Shown here in pieces: positions 1,356-25,886 of a DNA stretch of 31,048 bases. This stretch comes from a virus, in the UHGV virus genome UHGV-0096129, one strand, 5' to 3'. Numbering within the stretch: the stretch's first letter is position 1; every line of letters begins with the position of its first letter. A program made the position numbers and the translations under genes. The notes beneath the pieces were generated by a model. That model had not been told where the DNA came from and did not search any database. It worked only from the letters and a program-made list of their open reading frames with translations.

Positions 1356-1627
1356 GTATTCGTATTGAAATTGGCGAACGTTATGTCGTTACCAGTGACA
1401 GCTTTCAGTTTATTCTCCACGAGAAAAAGAGAGCGGAAAGCGGTAAAAACGCCGGTCAGGAATGGCTGGCGGTGGTTGGTTATTATCCGAAATTAAGCCA
1501 GCTCGTTTCCGGCCTGATGCATCACGATATTCTGACCGGAAGCGCAAAGTCTTTTGCTGATTTAAACGCGCAGGTTGAGCAACTCAGCAGGCGTTGTTCA
1601 GAGGCTTTTGGCTCATATGGCCGTTAA
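1352..1627 (+). CDS. small hypothetical protein (P2 orf83 position)
   Basis: 91-aa ORF, ATGA-overlapped with the upstream gene and overlapping the gene A start by 11 nt. Synteny only. Confidence 0.45.
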   Translation: MSIRIEIGERYVVTSDSFQFILHEKKRAESGKNAGQEWLAVVGYYPKLSQLVSGLMHHDILTGSAKSFADLNAQVEQLSRRCSEAFGSYGR

Positions 1628-3902
1628 AGCCTCCGGGCGTTTTGTCCCTCCGTCAGCATTTGCTGCAGGCACCGGTAAGGCGTTTACCGGTGCTTATGCA
1701 TGGAACGCGCCACGCGAGGCCGTCGGGCGCGAAAGACCCCTTACACGTGACGAGATGCGTCAGGTGCAAGGTGTTTTATCCACGATTAACCGCCTGCCTT
1801 ACTTTTTGCGCTCGCTGTTTACTTCACGCTATGACTACATCCGGCGCAATAAAAGCCCGGTGCACGGGTTTTATTTCCTCACATCCACTTTTCAGCGTCG
1901 TTTATGGCCGCGCATTGAGCGTGTGAATCAGCGCCATGAAATGAACACCGACGCATCGTTACTGTTTCTGGCAGAGCGTGACCACTATGCGCGCCTGCCG
2001 GGAATGAATGACAAGGAGCTGAAAAAGTTTGCCGCCCGTATCTCATCGCAGCTTTTCATGATGTATGAGGAACTCAGCGATGCCTGGGTGGATGCGCATG
2101 GCGAAAAAGAATCACTGTTTACGGATGAGGCTCAGGCTCACCTGTATGGTCATGTTGCTGGCGCTGCACGTGCTTTCAATATTTCCCCGCTCTACTGGAA
2201 AAAATACCGTAAAGGACAGATAACCACGAGGCAGGCATATTCTGCCATTGCCCGCCTGTTTAACGATGAGTGGTGGACTCATCAGCTTAAAGGCCAGCGT
2301 ATGCGCTGGCATGAGGCGTTACTGATTGCTGTCGGGGAGGTCAATAAAGACCGTTCTCCTTATGCCAGTAAACATGCCATTCGTGATGTGCGTGCGCGCC
2401 GCCAGGCAAATCTGGAATTTCTTAAATCGTGTGACCTTGAAAACAGGGAAACCGGCGAGCGCATCGACCTTATCAGTAAGGTGATGGGCAGTATTTCTAA
2501 TCCTGAAATTCGCCGGATGGAGCTGATGAACACCATTGCCGGTATTGAACGTTACGCCGCCGCAGAGGGTGATGTGGGGATGTTTATCACGCTGACCGCG
2601 CCGTCAAAGTATCACCCGACACGTCAGGTCGGAAAAGGCGAAAGTAAAACCGTTCAGCTTAATCACGGCTGGAACGATGAGGCATTTAATCCAAAGGATG
2701 CGCAGCGTTATCTCTGCCGTATCTGGAGCCTGATGCGTACGGCATTCAAGGATAATGATTTACAGGTCTACGGTTTGCGTGTCGTCGAGCCACACCACGA
2801 CGGAACGCCGCACTGGCATATGATGCTTTTTTGTAATCCACGCCAGCGTAACCAGATTATCGAAATCATGCGTCGCTATGCGCTCAAAGAGGATGGCGAC
2901 GAAAGAGGAGCCGCGCGAAACCGTTTTCAGGCAAAGCACCTTAACCGGGGCGGTGCTGCGGGATATATCGCGAAATACATTTCAAAAAATATCGACGGCT
3001 ATGCACTGGATGGTCAGCTCGATAACGATACCGGTAAGCCGCTTAAAGATACTGCCGCGGCTGTTACCGCATGGGCGTCAACGTGGCGCATCCCGCAATT
3101 TAAAACGGTTGGACTGCCGACAATGGGGGCTTACCGTGAACTACGCAAATTGCCTCGCGGCGTCAGTATTGCTGATGAGTTTGACGAACGCGTCGAGGCT
3201 GCTCGCGCTGCCGCAGACAGTGGTGATTTTGCGTTGTATATCAGCGCGCAGGGTGGGGCAAATGTCCCGCGCGATTGTCAGACTGTCAGGGTTGCCCGTA
3301 GCCCGTCGGATGACGTTAACGAGTACGAGGAAGAAGTCGAGAGAGTGGTCGGCATTTACGCGCCGCATCTCGGCGCGCGTCATATTCATATCACCAGAAC
3401 GACGGACTGGCGCATTGTGCCGAAAGTTCCGCTCGTTGAGCCTTTGACTTTAAAAAGCGGCATCGCCGCGCCTCGGAGTCCTGTCAATAACTGTGGAAAG
3501 CTCACCGGTGGTGATACTTCGTTACCGGCTCCCACACCTTCTGAGCACGCCGCAGCAGTGCTTAATCTGGTTGATGACGGTGTTATTGAATGGAATGAAC
3601 CGGAGGTCGTGAGGGCGCTCAGGGGAGCATTAAAACACGGCCTGAAAACACCAAATCGTCAACAAAGAAACGGAAGCCCGTTAAAAACACATGAAATTGC
3701 ACCGTCGGCCAGACTGACCCGGTCGGAACGAATGCAAATCACCCGTATCCGCGTTGACCTTGCTCAGAACGGTATCAGGCCTCAGCGATGGGAGCTTGAG
3801 GCGCTGGCGCGTGGAGCGACCGTAAATTATGACGGGAAAAAATTCACGTATCCGGTCGCTGATGAGTGGCCGGGATTCTCAACAGTAATGGAGTGGACAT
3901 AA
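1617..3902 (+). CDS. A: rolling-circle replication initiation endonuclease gpA (HUH family)
   Basis: Long ORF (track start 1575); start at ATG 1617 (MAVKASGRF...) gives 761 aa, the length I recall for P2 gpA. Contains an HUH-type motif (TPHWHMMLF) and the paired-tyrosine active-site motif YIAKYISK characteristic of phiX174/P2 A-type initiators. Confidence 0.9.
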   Translation: MAVKASGRFVPPSAFAAGTGKAFTGAYAWNAPREAVGRERPLTRDEMRQVQGVLSTINRLPYFLRSLFTSRYDYIRRNKSPVHGFYFLTSTFQRRLWPRIERVNQRHEMNTDASLLFLAERDHYARLPGMNDKELKKFAARISSQLFMMYEELSDAWVDAHGEKESLFTDEAQAHLYGHVAGAARAFNISPLYWKKYRKGQITTRQAYSAIARLFNDEWWTHQLKGQRMRWHEALLIAVGEVNKDRSPYASKHAIRDVRARRQANLEFLKSCDLENRETGERIDLISKVMGSISNPEIRRMELMNTIAGIERYAAAEGDVGMFITLTAPSKYHPTRQVGKGESKTVQLNHGWNDEAFNPKDAQRYLCRIWSLMRTAFKDNDLQVYGLRVVEPHHDGTPHWHMMLFCNPRQRNQIIEIMRRYALKEDGDERGAARNRFQAKHLNRGGAAGYIAKYISKNIDGYALDGQLDNDTGKPLKDTAAAVTAWASTWRIPQFKTVGLPTMGAYRELRKLPRGVSIADEFDERVEAARAAADSGDFALYISAQGGANVPRDCQTVRVARSPSDDVNEYEEEVERVVGIYAPHLGARHIHITRTTDWRIVPKVPLVEPLTLKSGIAAPRSPVNNCGKLTGGDTSLPAPTPSEHAAAVLNLVDDGVIEWNEPEVVRALRGALKHGLKTPNRQQRNGSPLKTHEIAPSARLTRSERMQITRIRVDLAQNGIRPQRWELEALARGATVNYDGKKFTYPVADEWPGFSTVMEWT
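3468..3487 (+). other. candidate replication origin / gpA nick region inside gene A
   Basis: Sequence GCGCCTCGGAGTCCTGTCAA lies in the 3' part of gene A, where P2 ori is located; from memory it resembles the P2/186 gpA cleavage region. Exact identity not verifiable here. Confidence 0.3.
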
Positions 3903-4354
3903 TGGCAAAAATTCACGAGGTAAAGCTGCACGCAAAATATTTTGACCTTGTGCTGGAAGGAAAGAAACGCGCAGAGTTTCGGAAAAATGACCGTAATTAT
4001 GAGCGCGGGGACACGTTGATTTTGCATGAATGGGTGCAGGGTGTGTATACGGGGCGAAAGGTTGAAGCCCAGATAACAGATGTTACTGACCTGTCAGACT
4101 GGCTGGAAGATTATGTCTTGCTAAGTATTGAGCGGCTTAATACAGGCGCATGTGAGATTGTGAACTGGAAAGAACTTAGTGAGCGTGGTCTGGTATTCAG
4201 AATTAATCATGAAATTATGCATCAGCTCGGCCTTGCTGTTATGTATGAACCAGAGACGGGGATGTCTGGCGGGGCAATGGTTGCCACGGATGGAGCATGG
4301 AACTATTCAGATGAACAGATTGAGCGTGCACAGCAAAACGGGTGGCTTGGATAA
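3902..4354 (+). CDS. DUF3850 / ASCH-like (PUA-fold) domain protein
   Basis: TAATG overlap with the gene A stop; N-terminal ~80 aa (KIHEVKLHAKYFDLVLEGKKRAEFRKNDRNYERGDTLILHEW...YTGR) matches the DUF3850 signature as I recall it (HELK..YF......K.FE.RKNDR....GD.L.L.E....YTGR). C-terminal ~70 aa unrecognised. Occupies the P2 orf91 position but is longer. Confidence 0.6.
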   Translation: MAKIHEVKLHAKYFDLVLEGKKRAEFRKNDRNYERGDTLILHEWVQGVYTGRKVEAQITDVTDLSDWLEDYVLLSIERLNTGACEIVNWKELSERGLVFRINHEIMHQLGLAVMYEPETGMSGGAMVATDGAWNYSDEQIERAQQNGWLG

Positions 4355-4560
4355 TGCACAGAATACCAGGTGAGATACCGCACCATAAAACTAAAAATAT
4401 CAAGCTGATGGCTATTGTTCAGCGTTTGCAGCAGATTATGGTCAACGAAAATCTGACGCCCGATGAGCTGGTCGGGTGTGCCGAAATAGTCCGGGATAAT
4501 TACGGGCGGTTTAACCATATCGGTCAATCCAGAGTTATGCCACCACCACGCAGACGATAG
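4354..4560 (+). CDS. small hypothetical protein (68 aa), translationally coupled
   Basis: ATG at 4354 overlaps the upstream TAA (TAATG); track ORF 4342..4560. Basic C-terminus (PPPRRR). No recognisable motif. Confidence 0.35.
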   Translation: MHRIPGEIPHHKTKNIKLMAIVQRLQQIMVNENLTPDELVGCAEIVRDNYGRFNHIGQSRVMPPPRRR

Positions 4561-4684
4561 AGAACGCCGCCAGTCGTGAAACTTGTTTTCAGGGCTGGCG
4601 GGGTTGAACAACGAGCGAAGCGAGGCGTTAGTTGACAGTAATATTTTTACTGCGTTGGTGCTGTTTTTTGACGGTTGAAAGGAG

Positions 4685-4701
4685 TTAGCTCGGAGAGCTA
4701 A
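4685..4701. promoter_or_regulatory. perfect 7-bp inverted repeat (TTAGCTC gga GAGCTAA), candidate operator upstream of the cargo module
   Basis: Palindrome seen directly about 90 nt upstream of the 4790 start codon, in an AT-rich leader. Confidence 0.25.
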
Positions 4702-4789
4702 AGCTAACAACTTACAAATATTCAAAAGTAAGCTTCCTGTTGCTAACATAAGGTCGATTTTTTATGTGGATGATGCAAAAAGGATAGCT

Positions 4790-5521
4790 ATGGATACTGT
4801 AATCGCTTTTCTATCACTCGCTTTTTTCGTTGCTTTTTTCATCGGATTAATCAAACCATCACTGGTGCGGATGCCAAACCGTAAAAGTGCAAGTGCGGTT
4901 TATCTCGGAGGAGGTTTTGTATTGAGCATAATTGGTTCAATACTCTATCCAACAGAAAAAAGCCAGCCAGTTGCTAAAACTGAAACATCAACCGTTGCAG
5001 AACACCAAGTCCAAAAAAAATTCGAATATGGTGGAAAAACACTCAAGGAATATCGGAACGAGCCAAAGAAAACTCGACACGATATTGTGAATAGTTACAT
5101 TGATTTTAAGGAAGTGCCAGTCACCGCATCAGATGCATTTTATGCCTGCATGAGTGAATATACTTTTACCAAAGATGATGAGTTGAAACTCGGTGATGTT
5201 CTTGGATGGTGCTTTAATGATTATGAAAAAGATCCGAAATCACTAAACAATAAAATCAACCTTGATACATTTCAGAGTAATTTTAGCGGTTGGGATGGTT
5301 CTTATCGACCATTGGAAAAGCTAATTAAAGAGAATATGAACGATGATTCATCTTATAAACATGTGTCAACAGTGTATCATTTGGTTTTGAATAAAGATCC
5401 GCACGCCATTGTGAAAACAACATTTCGCGGAACTAATGCTTATGGCGGAGTGGTGAAACAGACCGTTGCGGCGCGCGTCAATGTTCGAACTGGTGAGGTA
5501 ACTTCAATAATTGATAACTAA
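4790..5521 (+). CDS. hypothetical membrane protein (two N-terminal hydrophobic helices plus ~190-aa soluble domain)
   Basis: Track ORF 4766..5521 begins at GTG; the ATG at 4790 has AAGGA 8 nt upstream. Hydrophobic segments VIAFLSLAFFVAFFIGLI and AVYLGGGFVLSIIGSILY. AT-rich, unlike the phage backbone. No known domain recognised. Confidence 0.6.
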   Translation: MDTVIAFLSLAFFVAFFIGLIKPSLVRMPNRKSASAVYLGGGFVLSIIGSILYPTEKSQPVAKTETSTVAEHQVQKKFEYGGKTLKEYRNEPKKTRHDIVNSYIDFKEVPVTASDAFYACMSEYTFTKDDELKLGDVLGWCFNDYEKDPKSLNNKINLDTFQSNFSGWDGSYRPLEKLIKENMNDDSSYKHVSTVYHLVLNKDPHAIVKTTFRGTNAYGGVVKQTVAARVNVRTGEVTSIIDN

Positions 5522-5548
5522 AGTGAAGGGCTAGGCCATGTTATGTTT

Positions 5549-5569
5549 AAGCCATAATATGGCTTTTTT
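5549..5569 (+). terminator. weak hairpin plus T-run between the two forward cargo genes
   Basis: AAGCCA-taata-TGGCTT followed by TTTT; short AT-rich stem, so at best a partial terminator or attenuator. Confidence 0.2.
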
Positions 5570-5603
5570 ATGATTTGGGTAAATTGATAAGGAGTCGATT
5601 TAA

Positions 5604-6200
5604 ATGAATTCAAAAAAAAGGAATAAATACCTCAAGTTAATGTTTGAGTGTAGAAAAAGAATTGAAACGCTACATGATTTAGCATCCGGACATACAGGAG
5701 GACTTTATCTTCAAGTTTTAATAGAAATAGAAGCGTTACAACTCAGAAAGTTATTGGAGCTTATCGCATTTTCATCGTTAATTTCATATGAGGAATCCTA
5801 TAAGACTGTTGCGAAGAGTATTGATGGTGTATGGAAAGCCAAGCGTATTATAAGTGAGTTAGAAAAAATAAATCCAAATTTTTACCCGTTACCTGTATCA
5901 TCATTTACCAATGACGGGTGGAAGAAATTGAAAGGTGGATATTTAACAAAAAAACAATTTATTGCACTGTATGATGAATGTTCAACTCATATTCATGTTA
6001 GAAACCCATACAGGATAAGCGAAAACTCGCTGGCTTTTCATAGAAAAGTACCTTCATACTTAGAGAGAATTGAATGTTTATTATCTAAACATATTGTTTC
6101 ACTTGTAGATGATAGGGAGTTTCTTTTTGTAGAGGTACCTCATTTTGAAGATTCGGCTACCCCTCTAAGAATTAGATGTTTAATTAAAAATAGAGGGTAA
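5604..6200 (+). CDS. hypothetical protein (198 aa), second gene of the forward cargo module
   Basis: ATG with AAGGAG 9 nt upstream; AT-rich; no recognisable catalytic motif (no Walker A, no obvious nuclease signature). Confidence 0.65.
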   Translation: MNSKKRNKYLKLMFECRKRIETLHDLASGHTGGLYLQVLIEIEALQLRKLLELIAFSSLISYEESYKTVAKSIDGVWKAKRIISELEKINPNFYPLPVSSFTNDGWKKLKGGYLTKKQFIALYDECSTHIHVRNPYRISENSLAFHRKVPSYLERIECLLSKHIVSLVDDREFLFVEVPHFEDSATPLRIRCLIKNRG

Positions 6201-6446
6201 ATTTTTATTATCCCTTAATGATAACTTACATTAGTTATGATAAAAGTTTGATAACGTCAGTAGTGCTGGAGCTGTCCTTCAGCACTGATGGAGTTGAACA
6301 ATGAGCACTTCTGGACGTTATATTAATACTGATATAGTTAGTGGTTTTATTCTAAATTATTAGCGTAGCGCCGAAACTCACTATTTACAATGGTGGGGTA
6401 ACGCTGAAAGAACCGGAGCGTAGATATCTTTTTTTACTGAAAAATT

Positions 6447-6468
6447 GTGGTCAATATTGCTTGACCAC
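6447..6468. repeat. 8-bp inverted repeat (GTGGTCAA tattgc TTGACCAC) in the convergent intergenic spacer
   Basis: Seen directly; on the minus strand the hairpin is followed by AATTTTT, so it could be a terminator for the FRG-domain gene or a protein-binding palindrome. Confidence 0.3.
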
Positions 6469-6616
6469 TATACAGCGTCAGTTCAAACTACAATTAATAA
6501 AGTTAAGGTTCATAGCCTTTTTGAAGGGTACGTATCCAAGAGGCCTGTGCTCACTATGTGGTAAAGAGTCAAAATATCGTTATGTCTGATTCTTACGCAC
6601 AATTGTAATATTTCTT

Positions 6617-7972
6617 TTAAATGTCAGACATATATTTCTTTGCGATTTCAGAAGCTGTCTTTTCTATACTTGGATAAACAGTGCTCTCAGTAATGTTCAA
6701 TTGTGCAAGTTCTTTCAAGATTATTTTTTTATTAACTATGTCAACTCTGTCAAGAGGAAAGTCTTCTGTTGTCTCTGGGAGTACTGCCTCGTGACCAAAT
6801 AATAGAAATGCGCCAGACTGTGATTGAATGCGTTCATTATTTATTCTGGCGCGGATGAATAGTATTTTCCGAAGATCATGCAGGTCTATATTTTTTTTAA
6901 AATATGGTTTTTCAGCTTGAATATGATCTAAAAGTTTATTGAGTAGTTCTTTTGCGTGAGATTTGTCGTTTTCAATTAAGCTTTTTGATATAGTGCTTAA
7001 GATATTGTGTGGCATAAATGCCAGATTGGCTATACAGCTAACAGTATCAGAGTCAAAATATTTGATATTTTTTCTTTCTGTAGGAAACGAGATGACTTGT
7101 CCGGTGTCTTCAGGATCTTCACAGCATGCAAAATATAAAGCAATTAGCGGGTTGGATGTAATATCTAGCAATCTTGTAGGTAAACCATAATGCTGCATTC
7201 TAACTAATTTATCGATCGTAAAATTATCAGATATAAATTCATTAGGCCTTGCTGACAGAATTTCACGAACCATAGATGATTCTGAATCAAGGTGCTTATG
7301 AGTCCCGTTATCATGTTTCCGGAAAAGAGATGGGATAAGTTCATATTTATTTCGTGAATGTCCTCTATAAAAAATTTCAGAGTTTGAATTGTTGGATTTT
7401 TCTATAAAACTGATATATTCCTTTAAGCTCTTTATTTTTCTTATTTTTGATGTTCTTTTGATGTTTCCAATTTTGGAGGTGTTAGAGAGAATTTTTTCAG
7501 TTGTATCGTTTTTGGTTTTATTTAGCTCAAGTTTTAGCAGTGTTTCTCTTAATTTTTTATCTTTAACTGCCCAGTGGGTTCTGCTAAGACCATAAGCACC
7601 TAAGTCTAATATTTCTTTATATTGTTTTATTTCGGGGTTCTTGATTTCGCCAAAATCATGAACGATTTCAAAGTGATAACAAACATCATCATTGTCTATG
7701 TGTAAGTTGCCGACTTTTCCAAGTCTTACTCTTAAATATCTATTTTTGTCACCGTCTTTATCGTATATTTCAGTCATGAAAAGAACAGGTAGCTTAGATA
7801 GAGCGTCTAAAGTTATAGGGCTTACTGGTGTTAATTTTTTATAAAGTAAGGATGGTGTACCTTCTAGCATTCGGGAAAGAGAGAAACTATCTTCCCCATT
7901 TTTAATATTAGGATCCATAGATGGCCATCTATCAAACACAGAGGGCTCACCCCCGATAATGAGATTAAACAT
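6617..7972 (-). CDS. FRG-domain protein with uncharacterised ~190-aa N-terminal domain
   Basis: 451-aa ORF with AAGGAG 5-6 nt upstream of the ATG. C-terminal half carries motifs I recognise as the FRG domain (IFYRGHSRNKYELIPSLFR ... MQHYGLPTRLLDITSNPLIALYFAC ... SQSGAFLLFG). N-terminal domain and lysine-rich linker unrecognised. Strongly AT-rich. Confidence 0.7.
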   Translation of the reverse strand: MFNLIIGGEPSVFDRWPSMDPNIKNGEDSFSLSRMLEGTPSLLYKKLTPVSPITLDALSKLPVLFMTEIYDKDGDKNRYLRVRLGKVGNLHIDNDDVCYHFEIVHDFGEIKNPEIKQYKEILDLGAYGLSRTHWAVKDKKLRETLLKLELNKTKNDTTEKILSNTSKIGNIKRTSKIRKIKSLKEYISFIEKSNNSNSEIFYRGHSRNKYELIPSLFRKHDNGTHKHLDSESSMVREILSARPNEFISDNFTIDKLVRMQHYGLPTRLLDITSNPLIALYFACCEDPEDTGQVISFPTERKNIKYFDSDTVSCIANLAFMPHNILSTISKSLIENDKSHAKELLNKLLDHIQAEKPYFKKNIDLHDLRKILFIRARINNERIQSQSGAFLLFGHEAVLPETTEDFPLDRVDIVNKKIILKELAQLNITESTVYPSIEKTASEIAKKYMSDI

Positions 7973-8230
7973 TCTAACTCCTTTTTACTTAAGAAATGAC
8001 ATTGATTGTCTTAATGTTGTCGTAAGGGCGATGTAGATTGCCAGATCTGATTCAGCACTACCAGAGAAAACTGTCAGTCTATGTTTGACTCTGTGGGAAG
8101 GTAGTTTTGCGTACATTATTGCATCAAATTGCATTTGCTATTATTTGGCCTTTCATACAAATGAGCTCAAAACTGACGTGCTTTCGCCTGGCTTATACAT
8201 TTGCATCAAAACCGACCCATGAAGCGGGCG

Positions 8231-8249
8231 GGCGAGGCGGGGAAAGCAC
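8231..8249. other. cos site (19-nt cohesive end, P2-type)
   Basis: GGCGAGGCGGGGAAAGCAC followed by TGCGCGCTG.CGGTGGTGCTGATT matches the left end of the P2 genome as I recall it; location between the accessory region and Q matches P2 prophage topology. Confidence 0.7.
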
Positions 8250-8391
8250 TGCGCGCTGGCGGTGGTGCTGATTTTATTTTTTCAGCGTCTGAGCGCGTCG
8301 TGATGGCGTTTAAATTGTGCGCTGGGGCGTTGCTGTGTCTGCGGGCTGTTTTGTGCGGTGGTGAGCGTGTGAGGGCGTGATGACGGGATGT

Positions 8392-8413
8392 AAAAAAGCC
8401 GCCCGCAGGCGGC
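8392..8413 (-). terminator. rho-independent terminator downstream of Q (minus strand)
   Basis: On the minus strand: GCCGCC-TGCG-GGCGGC followed by TTTTTT, immediately after the Q stop codon. Confidence 0.6.
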
Positions 8414-8418
8414 GATGT

Positions 8419-9453
8419 TCAGCCGTTGTCAGTGTCCAGTGAGTAGTTTTTAAAGCGGATGACCTCCTGACCGAGCCAGCCGTTTATTTCCCGAATCCTG
8501 TCCTGTAACGGGATAAGCTCATTGCGGACAAAGACCTTTGCCACTTTCTCAATATCGCCCAGCGACCCGACATTCTCCGGCTTACCGCCCATCAACTGAA
8601 AGGGGATGCGGTGTGCGTCCAGCAGGTCAGCGGCGCTGGCTTTTTTGATATTAAAAAAATCGTCCTTCGTTGCCACTTCACTGAGCGGGATAATTTTAAT
8701 ACCGTCGGCTTTTCCCTGTGGGGCGTAGAGAAACAGGTTTTTAAAGTTGTTGCGGCCTTTCGACTTCACCATGTTTTCGCGAAGCATTTCGATATCGTTG
8801 CGATCCTGCACGGCATCGGTGACGTACATGATGTATCCGGCATGTGCGCCATTTTCGTAATACTTGCGGCGGAACAGCGTGGCCGACTCATTCAGCCAGG
8901 CAGAGTTAAGGGCGCTGAGATATTCCGGCAGGCCGTACAGCTCCTGATTAATATCCGGCTCCAGCAGGTGAAATACGGAGCCGGGCGCGAAAGGTGTCGG
9001 CTCGTTGAAGGACGGCACCCACCAGTAAACATCCTCCTCCACGCCACGGCGGGTATATTTTGCCGGTGAGGTTTCCAGTCTGATGACCTTACCGGTGGTG
9101 CTGTAACGCTTTTCCAGAAACGCATTACCGAACACCAGAAAATCCAGCACAAAGCGGCTGAAATCCTGCTGGGAAAGCCACGGGTGCGGGATAAACGTTG
9201 AAGCCAGAATATTACGTTTGACGTAAATCGGTGAGCTGTGATGCACGGCAGCACGCAGACTTTTTGCCAGACCGGTAAAGCTGACCGGCGGCTCATACCA
9301 TCTGCCGTTACTGATGCATTCGACGTAATCCAGAATGTCACGGCGGTCGAGTACCGGCACCGGCTCGCCAAAGGTGAATGCCTCCATTTTCGGGGCGCTG
9401 GCGGTCATTGTTTTTGCCGCAGGTTGCGGTGTTTTCCCTTTTTTCTTGCTCAT
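8419..9453 (-). CDS. Q: portal protein gpQ
   Basis: 344 aa, the P2 Q length as I recall it; ATGA overlap with the P stop; position next to cos and the terminase gene. Confidence 0.9.
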   Translation of the reverse strand: MSKKKGKTPQPAAKTMTASAPKMEAFTFGEPVPVLDRRDILDYVECISNGRWYEPPVSFTGLAKSLRAAVHHSSPIYVKRNILASTFIPHPWLSQQDFSRFVLDFLVFGNAFLEKRYSTTGKVIRLETSPAKYTRRGVEEDVYWWVPSFNEPTPFAPGSVFHLLEPDINQELYGLPEYLSALNSAWLNESATLFRRKYYENGAHAGYIMYVTDAVQDRNDIEMLRENMVKSKGRNNFKNLFLYAPQGKADGIKIIPLSEVATKDDFFNIKKASAADLLDAHRIPFQLMGGKPENVGSLGDIEKVAKVFVRNELIPLQDRIREINGWLGQEVIRFKNYSLDTDNG

Positions 9454-22836: not shown

Positions 22837-23364
22837 ATGCAGCATTTAAAAAATATTACTGCGGGTAATCCAAAAACTGTTGCCCAATATCAACTGACAA
22901 AAAATTTTGATGTTATCTGGTTATGGTCCGAAGAGGGAAAAAACTGGTATGAGGAAGTAAGTAATTTTCAGGAAGACACGATAAAGATTGTTTACGATGA
23001 GAATAATATAATTGTCGGCATCACCAGAGATGCTTCAACGCTCAACCCTGAAGGTTTTAGCGTTGTCGAGGTTCCTGATATTACCGCCAACCGACGTGCT
23101 GATGACTCAGGTAAATGGATGTTTAAGGATGGTGCCGTGATTAAGCGGATTTATACGGCAGACGAACAGCAACAACAGGCAGAATCACAAAAGGCCGCGT
23201 TACTTTCCGAAGCGGAAAGCGTTATTCAGCCACTGGAGCGCGCTGTCAGGCTGAACATGGCAACAGATGAGGAGCGTAGCCGACTGGAAGCATGGGAACG
23301 CTACAGTGTTCTGGTCAGCCGTGTGGATCCTGCAAATCCTGAATGGCCGGAAATGCCGCAATAA
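22837..23364 (+). CDS. G: tail fibre assembly chaperone gpG
   Basis: 175 aa directly downstream of H; AT-richer like the 3' part of H. Confidence 0.8.
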
Positions 23365-23437: not shown

Positions 23438-23515
23438 ATTACCTAACACATTGGTAACCTTCACAGATTTACGCGTTCTACATAGTTAGCATTGTATCTG
23501 ATGAGTTATCATGTT

Positions 23516-24295
23516 TTAAAATATCCAACTGATAAATCCACCTGAATACTTTTCACTAATTTTGATTGCATAAAGATCATGAAGAGTTATAAATAAATCA
23601 TTATCTTCTTTGAAAATTAACTCCTCATATTCTGCCATTATCAAATTATGCTGTGTTGTTAGTTTAGATATGTTATCTATTTCACTGGCAAGCATGGATT
23701 TGTTTACATTGGTGTGTGGATCCATGGCAATATATTTCCGCATCAATGGAATTAGTTGATCAGGGTCTATATTTTTTGCATTTTCCTTTGCTTTTTTTTG
23801 TCTTTCTGAATAGATGGAGTTAATTGTGTCAGTGTGTTTTTTCGCCAGTCTCTTAAACTCTGGATATGAACCAGTAACTAATGCAAGCTCTTCGTACTTA
23901 AGGAATAAATCGATATTGCATTTTTTTACCGTCATTTCAAGATCTTCAACTCTTTTTTTTAACTCTTCATTTGTTTTAATAAGAGACATCGGGAGAACTT
24001 CATAATGTTGTCCTAATTCTGAATCAGGGCTCATTGCCATATGTACTATTTCATTATACATGAGCTGATAAGAAGCAGATAACTCTCCATACTTTAGAAA
24101 TAGTTCATTATGTGAAGATGAACAAGAACTTTGTAATTTCATCATTGGCCTAAAGTAATCCTTTATAAACTCCTCCTGAAGATCTTGGTCTTTTTTGTAG
24201 CTCTCTAGGATTCCAGCAAAAAGAAATGACCCTAAAGATATAGAGATTATGGATATTAGCAATTGACTAAGGAATGATTGTGTTTCATTACTCAT
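23516..24295 (-). CDS. hypothetical membrane-anchored protein at the Z/fun hotspot
   Basis: 259 aa with AAGGA 6 nt upstream of the ATG. N-terminal hydrophobic helix (FLSQLLISIISISLGSFLFAGIL) followed by a Lys/Glu-rich, helix-prone domain. Strongly AT-rich; reverse orientation between G and FI. Confidence 0.65.
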   Translation of the reverse strand: MSNETQSFLSQLLISIISISLGSFLFAGILESYKKDQDLQEEFIKDYFRPMMKLQSSCSSSHNELFLKYGELSASYQLMYNEIVHMAMSPDSELGQHYEVLPMSLIKTNEELKKRVEDLEMTVKKCNIDLFLKYEELALVTGSYPEFKRLAKKHTDTINSIYSERQKKAKENAKNIDPDQLIPLMRKYIAMDPHTNVNKSMLASEIDNISKLTTQHNLIMAEYEELIFKEDNDLFITLHDLYAIKISEKYSGGFISWIF

Positions 24296-24554
24296 AAAAC
24301 ATCCTTAAAAAATAACACGAAAAGTGACTCCTGACAGGGAAGAAACGACAGGTCGGAAACAAACTTAACTGATGAGTTAGCCGTAGTCCAGAACCTTGTT
24401 TGAACACTTAGTGTGACTGTTTGCATCTCAGGAATTTGTGCCAATAATATTTGAATCCTTATAATTTATTTAAATCAAATTTAGTTACTCGCTCAAAGCA
24501 GGCTGTCAGATTTGATAGCGTTTGGGCTATGTAAACTGTCAGTCGGAAAATGAG

Positions 24555-24572
24555 TGTGTACAAATCAGGACA
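24555..24572. promoter_or_regulatory. candidate Ogr-type late-promoter activator site (TGT-N12-ACA) upstream of FI
   Basis: TGTgtacaaatcaggACA found by scanning the FI upstream region, about 125-140 nt before the FI ATG; P2 late promoters carry a TGT-N12-ACA dyad around -55. Confidence 0.3.
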
Positions 24573-24695
24573 GGCGAGCTGATTGCCCGCCTTTTCTTTA
24601 TCTGTTGTTTCATCCACTGACCAGCCAGGTCAAATAGCGTCTCATGCACTGCCCAACAGAAAATAGTTGCACCCATTAACCACGGAGTTAAACGG

Positions 24696-25886
24696 ATGAG
24701 TGACTATCATCATGGCGTGCAGGTGCTGGAGATTAACGACGGCACCCGCGTCATTTCCACTGTATCCACGGCCATTGTCGGCATGGTCTGCACGGCCAGC
24801 GATGCGGATGCGGAAACCTTCCCCCTCAATAAACCGGTGCTGATTACCAATGTGCAGAGCGCAATTGCAAAGGCCGGTAAAAAAGGCACGCTGGCGGCAT
24901 CGTTGCAGGCCATCGCCGACCAGTCAAAACCGGTCACCGTTGTCGTGCGTGTGGAAGACGGCACCGGCGACGACGAGGAAACGAAACTCGCGCAGACCGT
25001 TTCCAATATCATCGGCACCACTGACGAAAACGGTCAGTACACCGGACTGAAAGCCCTGCTGGCGGCGGAGTCGGTAACCGGTGTTAAGCCGCGCATTCTC
25101 GGTGTGCCGGGACTGGACACCAAAGAGGTTGCCGTCGCACTGGCATCAGTCTGTCAGAAGCTGCGCGCTTTCGGGTATATCAGCGCATGGGGCTGTAAAA
25201 CCATTTCTGAGGTGAAAGCCTACCGCCAGAATTTCAGCCAGCGTGAACTGATGGTTATCTGGCCGGATTTCCTCGCATGGGATACGGTCACCAGTACCAC
25301 CGCCACCGCGTATGCCACCGCCCGTGCGCTGGGTCTGCGTGCAAAAATCGACCAGGAGCAGGGCTGGCATAAAACGCTGTCCAACGTCGGGGTAAACGGT
25401 GTTACCGGCATCAGTGCCTCTGTATTCTGGGATTTGCAGGAGTCCGGCACCGATGCTGACCTGTTGAACGAGTCAGGTGTCACAACGCTGATTCGCCGTG
25501 ACGGTTTCCGCTTCTGGGGTAACCGTACCTGCTCTGATGACCCGCTGTTCCTCTTTGAAAACTACACCCGCACCGCGCAGGTGCTGGCCGACACGATGGC
25601 TGAGGCGCACATGTGGGCGGTGGACAAGCCCATCACTGCAACGCTGATTCGCGACATCGTTGACGGCATCAATGCCAAATTCCGTGAGCTGAAAACAAAC
25701 GGCTATATCGTGGATGCGACCTGCTGGTTCAGCGAAGAATCCAACGATGCGGAAACCCTCAAGGCCGGAAAACTGTATATCGACTACGACTATACACCGG
25801 TGCCTCCTCTTGAAAACCTGACCCTGCGCCAGCGTATTACCGATAAATACCTGGCAAATCTGGTCACTTCGGTTAACAGCAATTAA
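24696..25886 (+). CDS. FI: contractile tail sheath protein gpFI
   Basis: 396 aa; synteny. Confidence 0.9.
   Translation: MSDYHHGVQVLEINDGTRVISTVSTAIVGMVCTASDADAETFPLNKPVLITNVQSAIAKAGKKGTLAASLQAIADQSKPVTVVVRVEDGTGDDEETKLAQTVSNIIGTTDENGQYTGLKALLAAESVTGVKPRILGVPGLDTKEVAVALASVCQKLRAFGYISAWGCKTISEVKAYRQNFSQRELMVIWPDFLAWDTVTSTTATAYATARALGLRAKIDQEQGWHKTLSNVGVNGVTGISASVFWDLQESGTDADLLNESGVTTLIRRDGFRFWGNRTCSDDPLFLFENYTRTAQVLADTMAEAHMWAVDKPITATLIRDIVDGINAKFRELKTNGYIVDATCWFSEESNDAETLKAGKLYIDYDYTPVPPLENLTLRQRITDKYLANLVTSVNSN

What the first reader, a model, noticed from the sequence alone, without database searches (positions are those of the whole stretch)
4355..8230. Accessory island replaces tin/old between gene A and cos
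Between the end of the DUF3850 gene and the cos site lies ~3.9 kb whose composition shifts abruptly to AT-rich and whose genes (68-aa ORF, two-gene forward module, convergent FRG-domain gene) do not correspond to P2 orf91/tin/old. No OLD-type ATPase is present: none of the proteins has a Walker A motif. The location is the well-known variable defence hotspot of P2-like phages, so the whole island is probably a swapped cargo cassette.
Basis: partly seen in the sequence, partly recalled or inferred. Interest (0 to 1): 0.7.

Follow-up and report, generated by a model that had tools for sequence, protein, structure and literature searches.

The report
Mosaic cargo island in P2-like prophage
The AT-rich stretch next to the packaging site of this P2-like E. 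coli prophage is the phage family's well-known variable "defence hotspot", here filled not by one swapped cassette but by several independently travelling genes, the most interesting being an untested candidate anti-phage protein (FRG family) built from a swappable sensor-like domain and a predicted NAD-targeting effector.

Summary
Between the DUF3850 gene and an exact P2 cos 19-mer (8231-8249) lie four intact genes unrelated to P2 tin/old and lacking a Walker A motif. GC is 0.35 against 0.545 for the backbone, but the drop starts near 4634, not 4355.

This is the gpA-gpQ hotspot of P2-like phages (Rousset 2022), and this arrangement is already listed in that paper's Table S5A, untested. It is a mosaic, not one cassette:
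- A 68-aa gene that sits elsewhere in the hotspot in Salmonella.
- A homologue (78.6% aa) of coliphage 186 orf97, a membrane protein noted to block 186 infection.
- A 198-aa protein that is the only hotspot gene in Enterobacter and Yersinia P2-likes. Its fold is weakly HEPN-like, without the HEPN motif.
- An IS3-family end remnant (6338-6474) at the module junction.
- A leftward 451-aa FRG protein (PADLOC candidate PDC-S15). Homologues are lone genes at three kinds of prophage site.

Its N-terminal 150 aa form a mobile module also fused to TIR, Abi_C, kinase and nucleosidase effectors, and once to a CBASS cyclase plus FRG. I read it as a single-chain sensor-effector defence protein. No function is shown.

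Verdict: an ordinary locus carrying uncharacterised cargo.

The parts
3902..4354 (+). orf91-like gene (150 aa; DUF3850/ASCH plus DUF7415). It is itself accessory: absent from the AR_0067 P2-like, and truncated in P2 from window 4122.
   Evidence: Pfam DUF3850 1.3e-17, DUF7415 2.2e-14, ASCH 7.7e-11. RefSeq annotation of the 99.5% identical locus. Breakpoints at 3882 and 4122.
4354..4560 (+). 68-aa gene of unknown function (phrog_11386). GC is backbone-like. It is a real coding gene and is movable within the hotspot.
   Evidence: PHROG 4.8e-39. Substitutions against the Salmonella homologue are 16/7/36 by codon position, and the antisense 148-aa ORF is broken there. In Salmonella the homologue lies downstream of the 198-aa gene.
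4790..5521 (+). Homologue of coliphage 186 orf97 (243 aa from the ATG at 4790; the alternative GTG at 4766 gives 251 aa). It has two N-terminal hydrophobic helices and a soluble C-terminal domain.
   Evidence: tblastn gives 78.6% identity to 186 orf97, 94-96% to 9W/P22H4/P24A7b, and 44% to Vibrio phage VHML. The 186 record notes 'expression from plasmid blocks 186 infection' and places orf97 in the LexA-controlled p95 tum-orf97 operon. Hydropathy. phrog_3403 2e-144.
5533..5565 (+). Terminator-like hairpin (13-pair stem followed by a T run) between the orf97 homologue and the 198-aa gene.
   Evidence: Consensus scan. Phage 186 has the annotated terminator t95b after orf97. Function here is inferred only.
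5604..6200 (+). 198-aa protein (phrog_13799) with no Pfam, NCBIfam or PADLOC match. It is a helical bundle plus a small beta-sheet, and is hotspot cargo that can stand alone.
6338..6474 (+). Degenerate remnant of the right end of an IS3-family insertion sequence (3' end of orfB plus terminal repeat), lying at the junction between the forward block and the FRG module.
   Evidence: About 75% identity to IS3-family elements in over 2000 E. coli records. The match maps to the 3' end of an IS3-family transposase gene. Identity is 76% over 137 nt, with a frameshift and a stop. Collinearity with Salmonella ends at 6305.
6617..7972 (-). 451-aa FRG-domain protein (PADLOC candidate PDC-S15). It occupies the same position and orientation as old in P2.
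   Evidence: Pfam FRG 8.9e-23 and PADLOC PDC-S15 5.7e-98 over residues 169-448. More than 3800 homologues share the same architecture. AF2 pLDDT 82.
7523..7972 (-). N-terminal domain of the FRG protein (aa 1-150): a beta-rich module absent from Pfam and shared with other immune effectors. It is the putative sensor. Conserved residues are W16, R34, E37, T39, E68, R131, H133, W134 and K137.
7109..7378 (-). FRG core domain (aa 199-288) with the invariant motifs FYRGH and MQHyGLPTRLLD. The conserved C-terminal extension runs to aa ~440 (nt ~6653). It is the putative effector.
   Evidence: Pfam match to residues 199-288. Invariant columns. FRG is assigned to the ART superfamily and proposed as a NADase effector by Aravind and co-workers (PMC9503650).
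7973..8200 (.). Island-specific non-coding DNA upstream of the FRG gene (presumed promoter region), ending at the common right junction 8195-8202.
   Evidence: Junction coordinates. No consensus sigma-70 site was found on the minus strand, so the promoter is inferred, not seen.
8231..8249 (+). cos cohesive-end 19-mer, the right landmark of the hotspot.
   Evidence: Exact match, with 0.01 expected by chance.

Best explanation
Window ~4350-8200 is the cos-proximal accessory hotspot of a P2-like (Peduovirus) prophage. It is filled with a mosaic of at least three independently mobile modules acquired stepwise.

Modules
1. A small 68-aa gene.
2. A homologue of phage 186 orf97. This is a two-TM membrane protein whose 186 counterpart blocks 186 infection when expressed, so it is most likely a superinfection-exclusion function.
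3. A 198-aa stand-alone cargo protein of unknown activity.
4. An FRG-family gene, beyond an IS3 scar, transcribed leftward from the cos side like old in P2.

Proposed mechanism for the FRG protein
- It is a single-polypeptide sensor-effector immunity protein.
- Its N-terminal ~150-aa beta-rich module (PUA-like fold) binds a phage-associated cue, either a nucleotide or a modified nucleic acid.
- Binding releases the C-terminal FRG (ADP-ribosyltransferase-fold) domain, which consumes NAD+ or ADP-ribosylates a target and aborts infection.

Shown versus inferred
- Shown: gene content, mosaic structure, hotspot identity, family memberships, and the modular distribution of the N-domain.
- Inferred: every biochemical activity and the defence phenotype.
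For: Locus
- Exact cos match, the AT-rich block, and one common right junction with nested left junctions.
- The hotspot is described in PMC9122126, and this arrangement is listed in its Table S5A.

Independence of the modules
-.
- The IS3 remnant lies exactly where collinearity with Salmonella ends.

orf97
- 78.6% identity to 186 orf97, with the GenBank note on infection blocking.
- The SOS-operon context is cited in PMC5322425.

FRG protein
- PADLOC PDC-S15 at 5.7e-98.
- It recurs as a lone moron at three different prophage sites.
- The N-domain profile hits 851 representatives. Partners are CAP12/Pycsar-type TIR (20 of 147), FRG (15), Abi_C (6), kinases (5), PNP_UDP_1, KAP NTPase, Schlafen and SEFIR.
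- One protein fuses a full CBASS cyclase (PADLOC Cyclase 1e-112) to N-domain plus FRG. That places N-domain plus FRG where a ligand-gated CBASS effector normally sits.
- The N-domain is more variable than the effector part in 34 of 36 homologues.
- Precedent for swappable sensor domains on one-chain effectors: bacterial Schlafens (PMC13056530).
Against: - No experiment on any FRG/PDC-S15 protein was found in the held literature. PDC-S15 is only a candidate.
- Rousset 2022 did not test this arrangement.
- No consensus promoter was detected upstream of the FRG gene.
- The orf97 phenotype comes from a database note on a 79%-identical protein. Here tum and the LexA box are absent.
Confidence: 0.6

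Rival explanations
1. One reading: the whole 3.9 kb is one cargo cassette that was swapped in as a unit in place of tin/old.
For: There is a single common right junction at 8195-8202. GC is uniformly low from 4634 to 8200. The complete arrangement recurs at 98-99.5% identity in 7 E. coli genomes.
Against: There are four different left junctions. orf97 occurs with unrelated third genes. The 198-aa gene occurs alone and the FRG gene occurs alone or with an RT. An IS3 scar lies between the blocks. The 68-aa gene is relocated in Salmonella.
Confidence: 0.08
2. The genes are accessory but not anti-phage. For example, orf97 could serve the prophage's own induction or SOS biology. The FRG protein could be a toxin, an addiction module or a host-directed factor. 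The 198-aa protein could be a regulator or a counter-defence factor.
For: About a quarter of P2 hotspots carry non-defence cargo such as partition systems, and about 2% carry a cytolethal distending toxin. orf97 sits in the SOS operon of phage 186. No phenotype is known for FRG or the 198-aa protein. The 198-aa protein has no PADLOC match.
Against: The FRG family matches a defence-candidate model. Its N-domain is shared almost exclusively with recognised immune effector domains: TIR, Abi_C, PD-T4-6-like kinases, a CBASS nucleosidase effector and a CBASS cyclase. The 186 note describes infection blocking by orf97.
Confidence: 0.2
3. The FRG protein is an orphan effector of a nucleotide-signalling pathway. 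Its N-domain would bind a cyclic oligonucleotide made by a cyclase encoded elsewhere in the host, rather than sensing phage material directly.
For: P0256 fuses a complete CD-NTase to N-domain plus FRG. The N-domain also replaces the sensor part of a CBASS PN-superfamily effector and is joined to CAP12/Pycsar-type TIR domains.
Confidence: 0.12
4. These are ordinary conserved backbone genes of P2-like phages.
For: The 68-aa gene has backbone GC and is shared with Wphi, YpM50 and many prophages up to 4633. orf97 homologues span Escherichia, Salmonella, Erwinia, Klebsiella, Yersinia and Vibrio phages.
Against: P2 itself lacks all four genes. Only 33 of 50,697 phage records carry orf97 and only 12 carry any FRG relative. 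The full set occurs in 7 of 5426 E. coli genomes. GC is 0.35.
Confidence: 0.03

Closest known systems
P2 tin/old locus and the gpA-gpQ defence hotspot of P2-like phages (Rousset et al. 2022, PMC9122126)
   Same: Same position between gpA/orf91 and cos. The DNA is AT-rich and highly variable. A leftward gene is read from the cos side, as old is. This very arrangement appears in their Table S5A.
   Different: There is no homology to Tin or Old and no ATPase. The cargo here was not among the systems they tested.
Coliphage 186 SOS operon tum-orf97
   Same: The 243-aa protein is 78.6% identical to 186 Orf97. It has the same length, the same place as a late gene before cos, and a terminator-like hairpin after it.
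   Different: tum/DinI and the LexA-controlled p95 promoter are absent. The gene follows DUF3850 and the 68-aa gene instead. The Salmonella relatives keep DinI-orf97 and add the 198-aa gene.
PADLOC candidate system PDC-S15 / Pfam FRG (PF08867), assigned to the ADP-ribosyltransferase superfamily by Aravind and co-workers
   Same: Strong HMM matches. It is a single-gene system found in mobile elements.
   Different: The family is a prediction only. The PDC-S15 models cover residues 169-448 and not the N-terminal 150-aa module. ART catalytic residues could not be identified here.
Single-chain sensor-effector defence proteins (CBASS/Pycsar effectors such as TIR-STING or PycTIR, bacterial Schlafens, PUA/EVE-nuclease type IV restriction enzymes)
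   Same: A two-part architecture in which a variable, swappable N-terminal module joins a conserved toxic domain. The same N-module occurs on TIR, Abi_C, kinase, nucleosidase and Schlafen domains, and next to a CD-NTase. Fold neighbours include the readers of VcaM4I, McrB-N and PD-T4-3.
   Different: There is no cyclase partner here. The effector is FRG rather than a nuclease or TIR. The ligand is unknown. The PUA-like similarity is at fold level only.
HEPN toxins (for the 198-aa protein)
   Different: The defining Rx4-6H motif is absent. The conserved residues are R48, K49, E52 and H131, N134, P135. Many unrelated helical bundles score equally well.

Membership tests
P2-like gpA-gpQ (cos-proximal) hotspot cargo | Located between replication gene A and portal gene Q, directly beside cos, in a P2-like genome | tested here: met
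   gpA 1617-3902, cos 8231-8249, Q 8419-9453.
P2-like gpA-gpQ (cos-proximal) hotspot cargo | Content varies between otherwise collinear relatives | tested here: met
   Flanks are 95-97% identical while content differs in P2, Wphi, 9W, P24A7b, YpM50 and AR_0067.
OLD family (P2 Old) | ABC-type ATPase with a Walker A motif, plus a TOPRIM domain | tested here: not met
   No [AG]xxxxGK[ST] in any island protein, and no BLASTP similarity to Old.
P2 Tin | Sequence similarity to Tin | tested here: not met
   The best BLASTP E-value is 7.6.
Pfam FRG (PF08867) / PADLOC PDC-S15 | HMM match above the curated threshold, with the conserved [FY]RG motif | tested here: met
   81.5 bits against 25, PDC-S15 at 326 bits, and FYRGH at residues 201-205 invariant or nearly so.
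Validated anti-phage defence system | Experimentally shown protection against phage | not testable with these tools
   No report in the held literature, and not tested in Rousset 2022.
ADP-ribosyltransferase superfamily (for the FRG domain) | ART fold with an H-Y-E or R-S-E catalytic triad | tested here: inconclusive
PUA-like superfamily (EVE/YTH/ASCH) for the N-domain | PUA-like beta-barrel fold | tested here: inconclusive
CBASS / Pycsar | A cyclase (CD-NTase or pyrimidine cyclase) encoded with the effector | tested here: not met
   There is no cyclase in the window or next to homologues. Only the distant relative P0256 carries a fused cyclase.
Phage 186 SOS operon (tum-orf97) | An orf97 homologue | tested here: met
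   78.6% identity over the full 243 aa.
Phage 186 SOS operon (tum-orf97) | A tum/DinI gene and a LexA-repressed promoter upstream | tested here: not met
   Upstream are DUF3850 and the 68-aa gene. No LexA box lies within 4561-4789, and box-like matches across the window are at the chance level, 9 against 9.6 expected.
HEPN (for the 198-aa protein) | Rx4-6H catalytic motif on a four-helix HEPN bundle | tested here: not met
Rst_3HP (the three-hypothetical-protein P2 system of Rousset 2022) | Similarity to the three proteins of the E1114 system | tested here: not met
   No PADLOC hit for the three forward proteins. The published proteins are of different sizes and sequences.
IS3-family insertion sequence | Complete element with orfA/orfB and both terminal repeats | tested here: not met
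   Only about 137 nt of the right end remains, and it is frameshifted.

The most novel reading that the evidence does not exclude
The FRG protein would represent an uncharacterised class of one-gene abortive-infection immunity. A previously undescribed, widely shuffled ~150-aa PUA-like sensor module would detect a phage nucleotide or modified nucleic acid and switch on an ART-fold FRG effector acting on NAD+. That module is also found on TIR, Abi_C, kinase, nucleosidase, Schlafen and KAP-NTPase effectors, and is fused to a CBASS cyclase. Defining this module would annotate hundreds of orphan immune proteins at once.
Probability: 0.3. Interest if true: 0.6.

Novelty: new member of a known kind. 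Interest (0 to 1): 0.4.

Why it matters
The locus adds nothing conceptually. P2 hotspots are well mapped and this arrangement is already in a published table.

The value lies in the cargo. FRG/PDC-S15 proteins are common, with more than 3800 close homologues across Proteobacteria, and they recur in prophages. They have no experimental characterisation.

Their N-terminal module is shared with at least ten kinds of immune effector domain, and one protein fuses it to a CBASS cyclase. This gives a concrete, testable sensor-effector model and a handle for annotating many orphan TIR, Abi_C and kinase proteins.

The locus is also a compact example of how hotspot content is assembled gene by gene, with an IS scar at a module junction.

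Tried and rejected
- Sequence searches of the FRG, 198-aa and orf97-like proteins against PDB sequences gave nothing useful. The only hits were designed helical repeats for the 198-aa protein.
- NCBIfam gave nothing.
- A profile of the N-domain against the PDB and Pfam gave nothing.
- Foldseek of the FRG model against the PDB found no significant hit.
- hhalign of the N-domain against the neighbouring ASCH/DUF3850 protein was negative.
- Rfam on 4200-8500 gave only a chance-level hit.
- The repeat search found no flanking direct or inverted repeats that would suggest a transposon or integron-like cassette.
- The LexA-box search was at chance level.
- The promoter scan found fewer sites than in shuffles, and none upstream of the FRG gene.
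- I considered that the three forward genes might be the Rst_3HP system and rejected it.
- I considered the antisense 148-aa ORF (4303-4749, phrog_33524), which one phage record annotates. I rejected it on the codon-position substitution pattern and its disruption in Salmonella.
- I considered a CBASS-type operon and rejected it because there is no cyclase.

Full report
**What is there**

The window is a nearly complete P2-like (Peduovirus) prophage of Escherichia coli.

- The left flank holds gpA (1617-3902) and an orf91-like DUF3850/ASCH+DUF7415 gene (3902-4354).
- The interval holds a 68-aa ORF (4354-4560, +), a 243-aa protein with two N-terminal hydrophobic helices (4790-5521, +) and a 198-aa protein (5604-6200, +).
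- A 416-bp gap follows, then a convergent 451-aa FRG-domain protein (6617-7972, -).
- The exact P2 cohesive-end 19-mer lies at 8231-8249, followed by portal gene Q and terminase gene P.

This rests. A 99.5%-identical RefSeq locus (E. coli STEC2017-197) is annotated with the same five genes.

**Checking the observation**

- GC is 0.350 for 4634-8200, against 0.545 +/- 0.044 in 97 backbone windows (z about -4.6). GC3 is 0.25-0.31, against 0.53 in gpA.
- The drop starts near 4634, not at 4355. The 68-aa ORF has backbone-like GC (0.498).
- None of the island proteins has a Walker A motif, whereas P2 Old has GYNNAGKS. None resembles Tin or Old by BLASTP.

**Is it the variable hotspot?**

Yes.

- Rousset et al. 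2022 define the gpA-gpQ, cos-adjacent region of P2-like phages as a hotspot. They count 1,650 arrangements in 18,150 loci, and P2 itself carries tin and old there (PMC9122126).
- Neither this arrangement nor any FRG protein is among the systems they cloned.
- Among 5,426 complete E. coli genomes, 2,156 match the flanks but only 7 carry the whole island, at 98.2-99.5% identity and from varied sources.

**It is a mosaic, not one cassette**

Pairwise alignment gives one common right junction (8195-8202, about 30 bp from cos) but four left junctions:

| Left junction | Relative |
|---|---|
| 3882 | AR_0067 prophage, which lacks orf91 |
| 4122 | P2, inside orf91 |
| 4632/4633 | Wphi and Yersinia phage YpM50 |
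| 5499-5522 | phages 9W and P24A7b, and E. coli 50579417 |

- The last group shares the 68-aa gene and the 243-aa gene but continues with an unrelated third gene of 232 or 218 aa.
- YpM50 and several Enterobacter P2-like prophages carry a homologue of the 198-aa gene as the only gene between gpA/orf91 and the portal gene.
- Salmonella 186-like prophages carry DinI(tum)-orf97-198aa as a collinear block. This block matches window 4740-6305 at 78.5% nt, with 81% and 83% aa identity. There the 68-aa homologue sits downstream of the block.
- Collinearity ends at 6305. At 6338-6474 lies a frameshifted remnant of the right end of an IS3-family element, 76% identical to the 3' end of orfB plus the terminal repeat. 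This remnant marks the joint with the FRG module.
- No flanking repeats, tRNA genes or Rfam RNAs were found.

**The individual genes**

*The 68-aa gene.* It is under purifying selection in the forward frame. Substitutions against Salmonella are 16/7/36 by codon position, and the antisense ORF that one phage record annotates is broken there. Its function is unknown.

*The 243-aa protein.*
- It is the homologue of coliphage 186 orf97 (78.6% identity over its full length).
- Relatives occur in Erwinia, Salmonella, Klebsiella, Yersinia and, at 44% identity, Vibrio phages.
- In phage 186, orf97 is the last gene of the LexA-controlled p95 tum-orf97 operon. The record notes that 'expression from plasmid blocks 186 infection' (operon cited in PMC5322425).
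- Here tum and a LexA box are missing. A terminator-like hairpin follows the gene at 5533-5565.
- I infer a membrane-located superinfection-exclusion role, by homology only.

*The 198-aa protein.*
- It belongs to a small family of about 80 clusters, mostly Gammaproteobacteria, with no Pfam, NCBIfam or PADLOC model.
- The defining Rx4-6H motif is absent. The invariant residues are R48, K49, E52, H131 and P135.
- Its activity remains unknown.

**The FRG protein**

*Family and context*
- It matches Pfam FRG and, over residues 169-448, the PADLOC candidate PDC-S15 at 5.7e-98.
- More than 3,800 homologues share the same ~450-aa architecture in Enterobacterales, Aeromonas, Sphingomonas and Rhizobiales.
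- Homologues are lone, oppositely oriented genes at three sites:
  - between the replication genes and hokD in lambdoid prophages (LF82, SJC33, phage Tritos);
  - in a different P2-like hotspot, beside an HTH-reverse transcriptase pair;
  - in the tail region of Klebsiella myovirus prophages.
- This is the pattern of a self-sufficient moron gene.
- The held literature has no experiment on FRG or PDC-S15. Aravind's group places FRG in the ADP-ribosyltransferase superfamily and suggests a NADase effector (PMC9503650).

*Structure*
- The AlphaFold model (pLDDT 82) has a beta-rich N-terminal part (aa 1-150), a variable linker, and an alpha/beta FRG part with a conserved C-terminal extension.
- I attribute this to the N-domain from its size and secondary structure, but I could not see the aligned residues.
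- Foldseek found nothing significant, and sequence profiles found nothing. The assignment is therefore tentative.

*The N-domain as a mobile module*

This is the strongest new evidence. A profile of residues 1-152 finds 851 representative proteins among 1.84 billion. Pfam partners among the top 147:

| Partner domain | Members |
|---|---|
| CAP12/Pycsar-type TIR | 20 |
| FRG | 15 |
| Abi_C | 6 |
| Protein kinase | 5 |
| TIR_2 | 3 |
| PNP_UDP_1 nucleosidase | 2 |
| KAP NTPase, Schlafen AlbA_2, SEFIR, EAD2, DncV-like nucleotidyltransferase | 1 each |

- PADLOC recognises these partners as PDC-S35, AbiJ, bSEFIR, PD-T4-6-like kinases and a CBASS PN-superfamily effector.
- In P0256 it recognises a complete CBASS cyclase (1e-112) followed by N-domain and FRG/PDC-S15.
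- N-domain-TIR genes that I inspected have no neighbouring cyclase.
- Within the FRG family the N-domain is more variable than the effector part: 46% against 57% identity, in 34 of 36 sequences.
- These features fit a swappable sensor on a conserved toxic domain, as shown experimentally for bacterial Schlafens (PMC13056530).

**Mechanism proposed**

- Shown: the position, the mosaic structure, the family memberships and the modularity.
- Inferred:
  - The prophage expresses the FRG protein from the cos side.
  - Its N-domain binds a phage-derived nucleotide or modified nucleic acid.
  - The FRG domain then depletes NAD+ or ADP-ribosylates a target and aborts infection.
  - The orf97 homologue adds exclusion of related phages at the membrane.
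  - The 198-aa protein is further cargo of unknown action.
- Rivals:
  - a single cassette, which is largely refuted;
  - non-defence functions;
  - an orphan effector fed by a cyclase encoded elsewhere;
  - backbone genes, which is refuted for the 198-aa and FRG genes.

**Novelty and verdict**

The locus type and even this arrangement are already published. orf97 is a known gene. FRG is a listed but untested candidate. What is new here is the dissection into modules, the IS scar, and the recognition of the N-terminal module shared across immune effectors.

I rate it a new member of a known kind, of moderate interest. Confidence is about 0.85 in the structural account and about 0.5-0.6 in the defence mechanism.

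Noticed in passing
window 23440-24690 (ORF 23516-24295, minus strand): A second AT-rich island (GC 0.348) holds one 259-aa ORF with an N-terminal hydrophobic segment. It sits between tail-fibre assembly gene G (22837-23364) and sheath gene FI (24696-25886), the position of the P2 Z/fun accessory site. It has no Pfam or PADLOC match.
   Followed up: partly
window 6338-6474: A ~137-nt frameshifted remnant of the right end of an IS3-family insertion sequence lies in the gap between the 198-aa gene and the FRG gene.
   Followed up: yes
L010 (phage Wphi) 4100-4615, against window 3902-4354: Wphi gp91 and gp92 together correspond to the N- and C-terminal parts of the single orf91-like ORF here (DUF3850/ASCH + DUF7415). 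The Wphi copy therefore appears split by a frameshift or an annotation choice. P2 orf91 diverges from window 4122 onward.
   Followed up: partly
RefSeq E. coli chromosomes H31, H35, H44, H47, H53, H59: Several complete assemblies begin exactly at the start codon of the P2-like gpA gene, with the match at record position 2184. This suggests that an assembly-rotation tool treated the prophage replication gene as the chromosomal start.
   Followed up: no
L007 (E. coli AR_0067) 3119-5828; L025-L029: Another P2-like hotspot pairs a 47%-identical FRG protein (convergent, cos-proximal) with an HTH protein and a reverse transcriptase. It is listed as 'hypothetical + FRG + RVT_1' in Rousset 2022 Table S5A. 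Whether the RT and FRG cooperate is unknown.
   Followed up: partly
L030-L034 (Klebsiella prophages) 4432-7377: In Klebsiella myovirus prophages the FRG homologue sits between gpU and a tail-fibre gene. A conserved 439-465-aa gene with no Pfam match lies directly upstream and could be a partner.
   Followed up: no
L039-L041, gene upstream of P0265: An N-domain-TIR protein is preceded at a 10-bp distance by a conserved 172-aa gene with no Pfam match in three independent contigs, and in one contig by an HTH-Peptidase_M78 (ImmA/IrrE-like) gene.
   Followed up: no
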